Source of the DNA: a virus | Lineage: Duplodnaviria > Caudoviricetes | Direction: 5' to 3' (one strand) | IMG/VR virus record: IMGVR_UViG_3300014903_000004 | Span: 1 to 56,294 of that record | DNA: 56,294 nt | In this document: piece by piece, positions 41,317 to 41,612 of the stretch | Layout of the letters: every line of letters begins with the position of its first letter | Position numbering within the stretch: position 1 is the stretch's first letter | Notes under the pieces: generated by a model | Told to the model about the DNA's origin: nothing | Seen by the model: only the letters and a program-made list of their open reading frames with translations | Database searches by the model: none | Program-made: the position numbers and the translations under genes

Positions 41317-41351
41317 AAAAAAAGCCCTCTATCAACTAAGATGGAGGGCTT
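41317..41351 (-). terminator. Attenuator terminator upstream of tRNA array 2
   Basis: AAGCCCTC...GAGGGCTT-TTTTT, ending 10 nt before tRNA-Pro. Confidence 0.85.
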
Positions 41352-41383
41352 CGTAAAACTATTAATTATGTCAAAGAATCAAA

Positions 41384-41455
41384 TCAACAGCCAGCACCTC
41401 CGCAGTCCAGTGGACTCGGCAGTAACGATAGCGATTGTAGATAACACTTTTTCAT
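41384..41455 (-). CDS. Attenuator leader peptide 2, MKKCYLQSLSLLPSPLDCGGAGC
   Basis: AAGGA SD; 23 codons; 12 of codons 4-16 read by array-2 tRNAs; 3' part pairs with the terminator 5' arm. Confidence 0.85.
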   Translation of the reverse strand: MKKCYLQSLSLLPSPLDCGGAGC

Positions 41456-41612
41456 TTGATCATTCCTTTATTGTTTGCAAGTCCGCGACCACTGTTCAGG
41501 CGCACCGCTTAAAAAAGATATGTTTCCATTCTTTTAGGACAAGGTATTGGAGAGCGAACTCAACCAACCACAATCTTACATATACATCGACTTAAAATAG
41601 TTTCAAGCAAAT

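What the first reader, a model, noticed from the sequence alone, without database searches (positions are those of the whole stretch)
41317..41470. Attenuator 2: MKK-CYLQSLSLLPSPL leader matching isoacceptors individually
Seen: TGT TAT CTA CAA TCG CTA TCG TTA CTG CCG AGT CCA CTG. Both Leu anticodons (TAG: CTA/CTG; TAA: TTA) and both Ser anticodons (TGA: TCG; GCT: AGT) are sampled, so the match is at isoacceptor level. That points to sensing of tRNAs rather than amino acids. Hairpin 1:2 is CCG-AGTCC/GGACT-G-CGG (41419-41400). The antiterminator is GGAGG-T-GCT (41401-41393) with AGC-CCTCC (41350-41343), plus an inner GGCTGTTGATT/AATTAATAGTT helix.
Basis: partly seen in the sequence, partly recalled or inferred. 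Interest (0 to 1): 0.85.

Follow-up and report, generated by a model that had tools for sequence, protein, structure and literature searches.

The report
Leader-peptide switch for phage tRNA genes
A short translated leader in front of a phage's tRNA genes spells out the codons those tRNAs read and sits in a terminator/antiterminator switch, so the phage probably makes these tRNAs only when decoding of those codons is slow; the same design recurs in unrelated phages and I found no description of it.

Summary
On the minus strand, a 23-codon ORF (41455-41384, MKKCYLQSLSLLPSPLDCGGAGC) with a Shine-Dalgarno site is followed by an antiterminator (-17.4 kcal/mol), an intrinsic terminator (-17.3) and then seven tRNA or tRNA-like genes: Pro, Leu, Leu, Ser, Ser, Cys and a Tyr-like element. 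Codons 4-16 match these tRNAs in 12 of 13 cases and sample all seven anticodons. No other stop-free 13-codon window among 59,021 does both.

A second attenuator 800 bases downstream (MKKIFIQWQNFTNTFEMYSRSLLF) spells its own seven tRNAs: Glu, Thr, Asn, Trp, Phe, Met, Gln. The same architecture turned up in a distant relative, in samples of IMG/VR tRNA arrays and in two GenBank huge-phage genomes.

Four tests support it. Leaders match their own arrays better than permuted arrays. They match their own module rather than sister modules in 8 of 8 cases. Homologous leaders co-vary with tRNA content. Codon choice is cognate beyond codon usage (31 of 46 against 18.6 expected).

Best reading: a ribosome-mediated attenuator that reports decoding capacity for each isoacceptor the module supplies. 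Nothing is shown experimentally. Nine literature searches found no description.

The parts
41614..41645 (-). Intrinsic terminator ending the upstream gene (164-aa ORF 42211-41717). It separates that unit from the attenuator.
   Evidence: 13-pair stem followed by a T run; sequence.
41463..41469 (-). Shine-Dalgarno-like AAAGGAA, 8 nt before the ATG of leader 2.
41384..41455 (-). Leader ORF of attenuator 2, 23 codons plus TGA: MKKCYLQSLSLLPSPLDCGGAGC.
41408..41446 (-). Sensor codons 4-16 (C Y L Q S L S L L P S P L). 12 of 13 are cognate to the downstream module, and all 7 anticodons are sampled.
41400..41419 (-). Hairpin '1:2' (CCGAGUCC/GGACU-G-CGG), -8.9 kcal/mol. It overlaps the antiterminator by 2 nt and is likely a pause or timing element.
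41343..41401 (-). Antiterminator: GGAGG-U-GCU (41401-41393) pairs with AGC-CCUCC (41350-41343) around the inner helix 41392-41382/41367-41357. The whole is -17.4 kcal/mol.
41311..41352 (-). Intrinsic terminator: hairpin 41352-41321 (-17.3 kcal/mol) plus U tract 41320-41311. It ends a few bases before tRNA-Pro.
40786..41306 (-). Module A tRNA genes: Pro(tgg) 41306-41230, Leu(taa) 41220-41145, Leu(tag) 41133-41057, Ser(tga) 41046-40960, Ser(gct) 40950-40864, Cys(gca) 40860-40786.
40702..40784 (-). tRNA-like element with a 7-bp acceptor stem, anticodon loop CUGUAAA (GUA = Tyr), a long variable region, a T arm and ACCA, but an aberrant D arm. It would serve the TAT codon of leader 2.
   Evidence: Rfam tRNA-Sec model 24.9 bits, below its threshold of 47; not called by ARAGORN.
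40662..40690 (-). Sigma-70-like promoter of attenuator 1 (TTGACA, 17 nt, AATAGT). The ATG lies 5-6 nt after the -10 element, which suggests a leaderless leader mRNA.
   Evidence: sequence.
40582..40656 (-). Leader ORF of attenuator 1: MKKIFIQWQNFTNTFEMYSRSLLF. Sensor codons lie at 40647-40606.
40518..40600 (-). Attenuator 1 switch: antiterminator GCGAUCCUUG (40600-40591) pairing with CAAGGGUCGC (40559-40550), -17.9 kcal/mol; terminator 40558-40526 (-18.3) plus U tract.
39952..40514 (-). Module B tRNA genes: Glu(ttc), Thr(tgt), Asn(gtt), Trp(cca), Phe(gaa), Met or Ile2(cat), Gln(ttg).

Best explanation
Attenuator 2 is a ribosome-mediated (leader-peptide) transcription attenuator that gates a block of phage tRNA genes. 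Its sensor codons are a 'barcode' of the block's own isoacceptors.

Proposed mechanism.
1. RNA polymerase transcribes the leader, and a ribosome starts at the AUG (41455).
2. If every codon in positions 4-14 or so is decoded promptly, the ribosome runs on to the last codons and the UGA (41386-41384). There it covers GGAGGUGCU (41401-41393), the 5' strand of the antiterminator.
3. The terminator 41352-41321 then forms and transcription stops at the U tract, before tRNA-Pro.
4. If any of the cognate aminoacyl-tRNAs is scarce (Cys, Tyr, Leu-UAG, Leu-UAA, Ser-UGA, Ser-GCU, Pro-UGG), the ribosome stalls inside the sensor. The antiterminator strand stays free and pairs with AGCCCUCC (41350-41343), the terminator cannot form, and polymerase reads into the tRNA genes.
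5. This supplies exactly the tRNAs that were missing, a negative feedback.

Attenuator 1 does the same for Glu, Thr, Asn, Trp, Phe, Met and Gln.

Shown by computation: the ORF, the helices, the codon/anticodon match and its statistics, the dependence of the folds on ribosome position, and recurrence and co-variation in other phages.

Inferred: that the ORF is translated, that stalls at single codons suffice, the direction of regulation, and the biological trigger. Candidate triggers are a host that serves these codons poorly, late-infection demand, or loss of host tRNAs to degradation or to tRNA-cleaving defences.
For: (1) Anatomy. SD, ATG, 23 codons, antiterminator, terminator and U tract lie a few bases before tRNA-Pro.

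(2) Match in this genome.
- 12 of 13 sensor codons match and all 7 anticodons are covered. This combination is unique among 59,021 windows.
- Leader 2 matches its own module in 14 of 22 codons (13 of 22 without the Tyr-like element) but module B in only 1 of 22.
- Leader 1 matches module B in 13 of 23 codons and module A in 4 of 23.

(3) Folding of transcripts cut before the terminator's 3' arm.
- With the A site at codons up to 14 (leader 2), 15 (leader 1) or 12 (L010), an antiterminator of -18.9, -19.4 or -17.2 kcal/mol holds the terminator's 5' arm.
- With the ribosome further on or at the stop, it cannot form.
- These antiterminators beat 294, 300 and 299 of 300 dinucleotide shuffles.

(4) Independent cases.
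- L010 (portal 40% identical): MKTIINNNFRNFPIFSEAF, then Asn, Phe, Pro.
- L047: codons 4-16 LFSSYLLSLSLLS, 13 of 13 cognate, covering every anticodon type of an array that ARAGORN labels Ser x3, Leu x4, Phe x2, Tyr (8 of 8 decodable types).
- L137: three paralogous MRTI... leaders whose different sensors spell Lys/His/Phe/Trp, Arg/Ser and Asn.
- GenBank huge phages LR745206.1 and LR756502.1.

(5) Survey of terminator-plus-ORF sites upstream of tRNAs.
- 35 of 110 candidate entries reach best-window P < 0.01 against 6.2 with permuted tRNA sets; 0 of 200 permutations reach 35. Some leaders count twice because two hairpin calls were made.
- A composition-controlled within-locus test gives 9 of 98 at P < 0.01 against 1.0 expected.
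- A frozen-pipeline replicate on 112 new loci gives 6 of 54 against 2.55 (3 of 200 permutations reach it) and 2 against 0.03 at P < 1e-4.

(6) In the three genomes with two or more leaders, each leader matches its own block best in 8 of 8 rows.

(7) In one homologous leader family, residues that differ sit with the array that has the tRNA 54 times against 26.

(8) Isoacceptor level: P = 0.0097 for this leader; 31 of 46 against 18.6 expected across leaders, P = 1.2e-4.
Against: - There are no expression data.
- At equilibrium the full-length RNA always keeps the terminator, wherever the ribosome is placed. The model therefore needs kinetic, co-transcriptional folding, as classical attenuators do.
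- Without a ribosome the truncated transcript also forms the antiterminator. Untranslated transcripts would read through, unlike trp superattenuation, and the 1:2 hairpin is not a clear anti-antiterminator.
- Most tRNAs are represented by only one or two codons. Whether such stalls last long enough is untested.
- No sigma-70-like promoter was called between 41610 and 41470.
- The Tyr element is not a confident tRNA.
- CAA (Gln) in leader 2 belongs to the other module. Asp, Gly and Ala codons have no phage tRNA.
- No homologue of this leader was found, so conservation of its codons is untested.
- Across leaders, 15 of 46 informative codons are not strictly cognate.
- The design is absent from most arrays sampled, and the pipeline printed no candidate for T5 or Vibrio phage Thalassa.
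- The third sample shows weaker enrichment at P < 0.001: 2 against 0.48, reached by 15 of 200 permutations.
- The co-variation count uses non-independent pairs and arrays cut by locus ends.
Confidence: 0.85

Rival explanations
1. It is a real translation-coupled attenuator, but a general gauge of translation capacity or amino-acid supply. Any slowing of ribosomes would turn the tRNA genes on, and the particular codons would carry no isoacceptor-specific meaning.
For: A stalled ribosome cannot tell lack of a tRNA from lack of its amino acid. Untranslated transcripts are predicted to read through. 15 of 46 informative codons across leaders are not strictly cognate.
Against: Each leader matches its own module and not the sister module of the same genome, in 8 of 8 rows. 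Leaders co-vary with array content. Codon choice is cognate beyond codon usage. L047 samples every anticodon type of its array in 13 codons.
Confidence: 0.05
2. It is a chance ORF beside an ordinary terminator. The hairpin merely ends an upstream transcript, and the codon match is coincidence or a composition effect.
For: Short ORFs abound. No transcript or peptide evidence exists. Cross-locus permutations could be inflated if leaders and anticodons share base composition.
Against: The upstream gene has its own terminator at 41645-41614. The match is unique within the genome and is repeated by the sister attenuator. Composition-controlled within-locus tests and own-versus-cross tests remain significant. 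The antiterminator is stronger than shuffles.
Confidence: 0.03
3. The region encodes a functional small hydrophobic peptide or a small regulatory RNA (for example MicX-like) unrelated to control of the tRNA genes.
For: Rfam gives a weak MicX match over 41317-41463 (26.2 bits, E = 0.0065). The attenuated transcript would be a stable short RNA, and attenuator RNAs can act in trans in other bacteria (abstract of PMC6614838 in the listing).
Against: The MicX score is far below the family threshold of 75. Neither idea explains the codon/anticodon correspondence or its recurrence with different peptides in other phages.
Confidence: 0.03
4. The RNA senses tRNAs directly, T-box-like: the codon-like triplets pair with anticodons without translation.
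For: A terminator/antiterminator switch lies next to triplets complementary to the anticodons.
Against: No T-box or other riboswitch family was detected at E <= 1. The triplets form one uninterrupted reading frame with SD, ATG and stop. Up to 13 different 'specifiers' in a row has no precedent (recalled). Fold switching tracks ribosome position.
Confidence: 0.02

Closest known systems
Leader-peptide attenuators of amino-acid biosynthetic operons in enterobacteria (trpL, hisL, leuL, pheL, and the multivalent thrL and ilvL). Recalled textbook knowledge.
   Same: A short leader ORF with regulatory codons, followed by mutually exclusive antiterminator and terminator helices. Ribosome position decides which one forms. 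The N-termini are of the MK/MR type.
   Different: The regulated genes here are tRNAs, not enzymes. The sensor is a mixed string with one to five codons for each of up to seven (elsewhere up to about 15) different isoacceptors, not a run for one to three amino acids. The element is on phages. The 1:2 hairpin barely competes with the antiterminator. No Rfam leader family matches.
The pheST (phenylalanyl-tRNA synthetase) leader attenuator of E. coli. Recalled.
   Same: Leader-peptide attenuation applied to a gene of the translation apparatus. It responds to charged tRNA.
   Different: It controls a synthetase, with Phe codons only. I checked the E. coli K-12 tRNA-Phe genes pheV and pheU: a promoter directly abuts each tRNA, with no room for a leader ORF.
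T-box riboswitches
   Same: They sense a specific tRNA through codon-anticodon pairing and switch terminator against antiterminator. They control genes that restore the supply of charged tRNA.
   Different: T-boxes bind uncharged tRNA directly, with one specifier codon and a conserved T-box sequence, and need no translation. None was detected here.
Phage tRNA clusters described so far (T4, T5, vibriophages, huge phages)
   Same: Arrays of tRNA genes in phage genomes, with promoters and terminators interspersed (T5 annotation).
   Different: In T5 and Vibrio phage Thalassa my pipeline printed no terminator-plus-matched-leader site. The huge-phage survey paper contains none of the words 'attenuat', 'leader peptide' or 'terminator' (term search only).

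Membership tests
Ribosome-mediated (leader-peptide) transcription attenuators | Short leader ORF with a start codon and ribosome-binding site upstream of the regulated genes | tested here: met
   ATG at 41455, AAAGGAA 8 nt upstream, 23 codons, TGA at 41386-41384.
Ribosome-mediated (leader-peptide) transcription attenuators | Regulatory codons that correspond to the product or substrate of the regulated genes | tested here: met
   12 of 13 sensor codons are cognate to the downstream tRNAs and 7 of 7 anticodons are covered, a unique combination in the genome. The own-versus-cross test agrees.
Ribosome-mediated (leader-peptide) transcription attenuators | Intrinsic terminator between the leader and the regulated genes | tested here: met
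   Hairpin 41352-41321 (-17.3 kcal/mol) plus a U tract, a few bases before tRNA-Pro.
Ribosome-mediated (leader-peptide) transcription attenuators | Antiterminator that excludes the terminator and whose formation depends on where the ribosome stands | tested here: met
   The structure 41401-41343 (-17.4) shares AGCCCUCC with the terminator. It forms with the A site at codons up to 14 and is masked at later codons or the stop. It is stronger than 294 of 300 shuffles.
Ribosome-mediated (leader-peptide) transcription attenuators | Anti-antiterminator (1:2) that forces termination when the leader is not translated | tested here: inconclusive
   The hairpin 41419-41400 exists (-8.9) but overlaps the antiterminator by 2 nt, and the two coexist in the ribosome-free truncated fold.
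Ribosome-mediated (leader-peptide) transcription attenuators | Demonstrated translation of the leader and regulated read-through | not testable with these tools
   This needs infected-cell RNA or ribosome data, or reporter assays, which these tools cannot supply.
T-box riboswitch | Stem I with a specifier loop, and the conserved T-box sequence in the antiterminator bulge | tested here: not met
   Rfam scan of 39000-43000 at E <= 1 lists only tRNA-type hits, plastid UTR models lying on tRNA genes, and a weak MicX hit.
Rfam amino-acid operon leader families (Trp, His, Leu, Thr, Phe leaders) | A match to the covariance model at or above its gathering score | tested here: not met
   No such family appears even at E <= 1.
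MicX sRNA (RF01808) | A match at or above the gathering score of 75 bits | tested here: not met
   26.2 bits, E = 0.0065, over 41317-41463.

The most novel reading that the evidence does not exclude
Phage tRNA arrays are often built as demand-driven modules. Each module is preceded by a 'codon barcode' leader that polls, isoacceptor by isoacceptor, whether the infected cell can decode the codons the module serves, and it switches the module on only when one of them fails. This would make the arrays inducible replacements for host tRNAs that are scarce in a given host, degraded during infection, or cut by tRNA-targeting defence nucleases. It would be a sensor-coupled counter-defence and host-adaptation device, spread by modular exchange of sensor cassettes, as in the three paralogous leaders of L137 and in the huge phages.
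Probability: 0.35. Interest if true: 0.95.

Novelty: new variant of a known kind. Interest (0 to 1): 0.9.

Why it matters
Why phages carry tRNA genes is a long-standing question. The proposed answers are codon-usage compensation, replacement of degraded host tRNAs, and escape from anticodon nucleases.

An attenuator whose sensor lists the module's own isoacceptors says that expression is conditional on failure to decode exactly those codons. That turns the question into a testable one. The leader is a natural reporter of which tRNAs the phage expects to run short, and it can be assayed with reporters, defined tRNA pools or induced tRNA cleavage.

It also extends leader-peptide attenuation in three ways:
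- to non-coding targets;
- to highly multivalent sensors (7 to about 15 tRNAs);
- to viruses, including huge phages.

It offers compact parts for synthetic sensors of individual tRNA pools. For annotation, it explains small 'hypothetical' ORFs and terminators inside tRNA arrays.

Tried and rejected
Close homologues of this leader.
- Megablast and blastn of the region against 50,697 phage records gave only tRNA matches.
- Degenerate back-translations of both leader peptides found 0 stretches in IMG/VR.
- Portal-based searches gave only relatives at 24-40% identity, and none in bacterial genomes.
I did not call that tool.

Other homology checks.
- L047's similar-looking leader has no DNA homology to attenuator 2.
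- Leaders of L047, L103, L070, L177 and L188 have no match in isolated phages.
- The L095 leader has no match in E. coli genomes.

Recalled leads that failed.
- T5: its small ORFs between tRNAs are not matched leaders.
- Vibrio phage Thalassa: the pipeline printed no candidate.
- I recalled that the E. coli tRNA-Phe genes might have attenuator-like leaders. The K-12 sequence shows promoters abutting pheV and pheU, so I dropped this.

Statistics that were too blunt.
- The whole-ORF binomial over 428 blocks gave 27 against 17 at P < 0.01.
- A genome-wide window scan using all tRNAs of a strand was swamped by low-complexity sequence.
- The 'switch index' separates matched from unmatched candidates only modestly: medians 0.44 against 0.30, Mann-Whitney p = 0.008.

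Sequencing runs.
- No RNA holder was listed.
- Laying contigs of three runs showed mostly unrelated tRNA pieces.
- One 191-nt contig of run X3 spans 40448-40635 with changes only at 40521-40523, in the spacer after the attenuator 1 terminator. No contig other than the probable source covered leader 2.

Literature.
- Nine searches found no paper describing leader peptides or attenuators in front of tRNA genes. I saw listings and abstract starts only.
- I read passages of PMC2864571 and PMC3082878. Both were irrelevant.
- I ran a term search only in PMC7162821.
- Subscription journals and supplements were not searchable, so prior description cannot be excluded.

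Full report
WHAT IS THERE. The window is a complete 56,294-bp viral record. It is a myovirus-type phage with a DnaB-like helicase, large terminase, HK97-type portal, major head protein and tail sheath. On the minus strand, upstream of the portal gene, lie 13 tRNA genes in two blocks.

The finding sits in front of the first block. After the upstream gene's own terminator (41645-41614) come, in order:
- AAAGGAA (41469-41463).
- An ATG at 41455 and 23 codons: MKKCYLQSLSLLPSPLDCGGAGC.
- A hairpin at 41419-41400.
- A long-range helix between GGAGGUGCU (41401-41393) and AGCCCUCC (41350-41343).
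- A terminator hairpin at 41352-41321 with a U tract.
- tRNA-Pro(tgg), Leu(taa), Leu(tag), Ser(tga), Ser(gct) and Cys(gca).
- A tRNA-like element whose anticodon loop carries GUA, the Tyr anticodon (40784-40702). ARAGORN does not call it, and Rfam scores it below threshold.

THE SISTER ELEMENT. Directly after this block there is a sigma-70-like promoter (40690-40662). It is followed by a second leader, MKKIFIQWQNFTNTFEMYSRSLLF (40656-40582), its own antiterminator and terminator, and then tRNA-Glu, Thr, Asn, Trp, Phe, Met(cat) and Gln. These are exactly the amino acids spelled by codons 5-17.

IS THE MATCH MORE THAN CHANCE? I used strict wobble rules: U34 reads A and G, G34 reads C and U, C34 reads G.
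- Codons 4-16 of leader 2 match module A in 12 of 13 cases.
- Among 59,021 stop-free 13-codon windows in all six frames, 8 reach 12 or more matches. One is the leader. The other 7 lie in low-complexity stretches (47110-47228 and 42163-42201).
- Only the leader's three overlapping windows cover all seven anticodons with 10 or more matches. The other four windows that cover all seven have at most 8 matches.
- Leader 1 reaches 12 of 14 matches and 7 of 7 anticodons. Its only rivals by match count lie in the same repeat.
- The cross-test is clean. Leader 2 matches module B in 1 of 22 codons, and leader 1 matches module A in 4 of 23. The own-module values are 14 of 22 and 13 of 23.
- Given the amino acids and the phage's own synonymous usage in long ORFs, the chance that all 10 Leu, Ser and Pro codons are strictly cognate is 0.0097. 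It is 0.0034 when the two Thr codons of leader 1 are added. The leader avoids CTT, the phage's commonest Leu codon, and uses CTA, CTG and TCG, which are rare in its genes.

DOES IT FOLD LIKE AN ATTENUATOR? At equilibrium the full RNA always keeps the terminator, as expected for a strong hairpin, so I modelled the kinetic situation. The transcript was cut just before the terminator's 3' arm, and the ribosome masked everything up to 14 nt past the first base of its A-site codon.
- Leader 2: the antiterminator forms (-18.9 kcal/mol) with the A site at any codon up to 14. It weakens at codon 15 (-11.9) and is gone from codon 16 to the stop.
- Leader 1: the limit is codon 15 (-19.4).
- L010: the limit is codon 12 (-17.2).

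In all three, the matched codons occupy the zone where a stall leaves the antiterminator free. The unmatched 3' codons (DCGGAGC in leader 2) are the antiterminator strand itself.

Isolated energies are balanced: antiterminator -17.4 against terminator -17.3, and -17.9 against -18.3 in attenuator 1. The antiterminators are far more stable than dinucleotide shuffles of their 5' strand. Only 6 of 300, 0 of 300 and 1 of 300 shuffles were as stable.

One departure from the trp paradigm: the '1:2' hairpin shares only two bases with the antiterminator and coexists with it in the ribosome-free fold. Untranslated RNA is therefore predicted to read through. The hairpin is better seen as a pause or timing element.

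RELATED AND UNRELATED PHAGES. No close relative could be fetched.

The best reachable relative is L010, whose portal is 40% identical. It carries a TTGACA/TATAAT promoter, the ORF MKTIINNNFRNFPIFSEAF, a GAGGCUU/AAGCCUC antiterminator and a terminator, and then tRNA-Asn, Phe and Pro. The tRNA set is different and the leader changes to match.

I then drew three samples of IMG/VR tRNA arrays, using T-loop patterns that are blind to leaders. I scored every site that had three features: a terminator-like hairpin up to 220 nt upstream of a tRNA, at least 100 nt of free upstream sequence, and an ORF of 10-40 codons ending just before the hairpin.
- Samples 1 and 2 plus the seed sequences (245 sequences, 2,333 tRNAs). 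35 of 110 candidate entries have a best 13-codon window with P < 0.01 against their own downstream tRNAs, compared with 6.2 for tRNA sets permuted between loci; 0 of 200 permutations reach 35. At P < 0.001 the figures are 18 against 1.5. Some leaders are counted twice through alternative hairpin calls. Without duplicates, 29 leaders in 24 sequences pass P < 0.01, and these include the window's two leaders and the one in L010.
- Composition control. Shared base composition could inflate that test, so I also ranked each leader against all windows of its own locus. 9 of 98 fall below a corrected empirical P of 0.01 (1.0 expected), and 18 fall below 0.05 (4.9 expected).
- Frozen-pipeline replicate on 112 new loci. 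The signal is weaker but present: 6 of 54 against 2.55 at P < 0.01 (3 of 200 permutations reach it), 2 against 0.48 at P < 0.001 (15 of 200), and 2 against 0.03 at P < 1e-4 (0 of 200).

The design is therefore recurrent but in the minority. Roughly 4-9% of the sampled array loci show it. It is absent from T5 and Vibrio phage Thalassa.

THE MOST TELLING CASES.
- L047. Codons 4-16 are TTG TTT AGT TCA TAT CTG TTA TCG CTA TCC TTG CTC AGC. All 13 are cognate. Together they sample every anticodon type of the array that follows, which ARAGORN labels Ser(tga, gga, gct), Leu(tag, gag, taa, caa), Phe(gaa, aaa) and Tyr (8 of 8 decodable types). The TTT codon is counted under Phe(gaa).
- L137. It has three paralogous leaders with the same first four codons (MRTI) and, in two of them, the same C-terminus. 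Their sensor cassettes differ: NKHKHFSKSSKWF before Lys, His, Phe, Lys, Trp, Trp, Lys, His, Phe, Lys; SSSRSSS before Arg, Ser; and NLNMINVNNTLN before Asn, Asn.
- Relatives of L137. These are the GenBank huge-phage genomes LR745206.1 and LR756502.1. They carry homologous leaders plus further ones, for example IETIGYTGYEGAYSE before Glu, Tyr, Glu, Tyr, Glu, and ISVGVIAIGAG before Ile, Gly, Gly.
- Own module against sister modules. In the three genomes with two or more leaders (the window, L137, L152), every leader matches its own block better than the sister blocks, in 8 of 8 rows.
- Co-variation. In the family MS[YF]...LDCR[YD]WHIEG (L177, L016, L135, L200, L050), a residue whose tRNA is present in only one of two compared arrays sits in that array's leader 54 times and in the other's 26 times. 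Pairs are not independent and several arrays are cut by the locus end. As an example, L177 and L016 have Pro and Phe tRNAs and P and F in the sensor, while L135 and L200 have neither.

ISOACCEPTOR LEVEL ACROSS LEADERS. To avoid circularity I selected leaders by amino-acid match only, which gave 13 non-redundant windows. I then asked whether the synonymous codon used is the one the encoded anticodon reads. 31 of 46 informative codons are cognate against 18.6 expected from each locus's own usage (P = 1.2e-4).

WHAT IT IS NOT.
- No Rfam family for a T-box, riboswitch or amino-acid leader matches at E <= 1.
- A MicX hit (26 bits against a threshold of 75) is noise or shared terminator shape.
- The E. 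coli tRNA-Phe genes, which I half-remembered as having attenuator-like leaders, have promoters abutting the tRNA.

MECHANISM AND MEANING. The best-supported reading (0.85) is classical ribosome-mediated attenuation turned to a new purpose. The leader polls decoding of exactly those codons that the module's tRNAs read. A stall at any of them keeps the antiterminator open and transcribes the module. Smooth translation to the stop masks the antiterminator and terminates.

Because most isoacceptors are represented once or twice, the device seems tuned to severe shortage of a tRNA species rather than to mild amino-acid limitation (inference). The trigger is not known. It could be a host that serves these codons poorly, late-infection demand, or host tRNA loss, including loss to tRNA-cleaving defences. 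That last, counter-defence reading is my novel case (0.35).

NOVELTY. The mechanism class is known. The target (tRNA genes), the multivalent isoacceptor 'barcode', the modular cassette exchange and the viral setting are, as far as nine full-text searches and three look-ups show, undescribed.

VERDICT. It is a new variant of a known kind, of high interest. All evidence is computational.

Noticed in passing
window 40653-40690 (-); L010 2082-2117 (+): In attenuator 1 and in L010 the ATG lies 5-6 nt after the -10 hexamer of a near-consensus sigma-70 promoter. The leader mRNA would then be leaderless or nearly so, with transcription and translation starting at about the same base. Attenuator 2 instead has a normal SD.
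   Followed up: partly
window 40702-40784 (-): A tRNA-like element with a Tyr anticodon loop (CUGUAAA), a 7-bp acceptor stem, a long variable region, a T arm and ACCA, but no normal D arm. Its D region can pair with the variable region instead. ARAGORN does not call it and the Rfam tRNA-Sec model gives 24.9 bits. It could be functional or decayed.
   Followed up: partly
window 41057-41133 and 41145-41220 (-): The two 'Leu' tRNAs (anticodons UAG and UAA) are only 77 and 76 nt long and lack the long variable arm usual for bacterial tRNA-Leu. The Leu tRNAs in L047 are 83-87 nt. Their amino-acid identity is therefore uncertain.
   Followed up: no
window 40029-40104 (-) and leader 1 codons 4 and 6: The tRNA with anticodon CAT is labelled Met, but it could be a lysidine-type tRNA-Ile2. 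Leader 1 has two ATA codons (I4, I6) that would then also be matched.
   Followed up: no
window 47098-47228, inside ORF 47015-47695 (-): A GCN-rich triplet repeat encodes an Ala/Asp/Tyr-rich low-complexity tail of a 226-aa protein. It was the only other place with many 'matches' in the codon scans.
   Followed up: partly
window 41317-41463 (-): A weak Rfam match to the Vibrio cholerae sRNA MicX (26.2 bits, E = 0.0065, threshold 75) spans the whole attenuator.
   Followed up: no
L070 6866-7092 (-) and L070 about 1571-1646 (-): A group I intron (Rfam, 86.5 bits) lies in this phage tRNA array. A degenerate tRNA-like sequence with a UGC loop lies between the attenuator terminator and the first called tRNA; neither ARAGORN nor Rfam calls it.
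   Followed up: no
L010 1850-1965 (+): This sequence has tRNA-like ends (a GGCGGTA... 5' end and a ...TCTGCCACCA 3' end) but about 40 extra bases in the middle. It may be an interrupted tRNA lying just upstream of the L010 attenuator.
   Followed up: no
L248 (LR745206.1) and L249 (LR756502.1), minus strand of the loci, about 20090-23300 and 36110-38400: Public huge-phage genomes of about 635-642 kb carry several paralogous matched leaders in front of short tRNA blocks, many of which hold repeated tRNAs of one kind (His-Phe-His-Phe, Glu-Tyr-Glu-Tyr-Glu, Lys x3).
   Followed up: partly
window 40448-40635: A 191-nt contig from a seawater run (X3) matches this stretch. Its only differences (two substitutions and an AAA insertion) fall at 40521-40523, the spacer between the attenuator 1 U tract and tRNA-Glu.
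   Followed up: no
L068 (-) strand coordinates 6834-6929: A high-GC phage has an ORF MKRSTTNIATTATSMVVV... about 100 nt upstream of three Thr tRNAs (tgt, cgt, ggt). It is a Thr-rich leader-like ORF, but I did not see a clear terminator next to the tRNAs.
   Followed up: no
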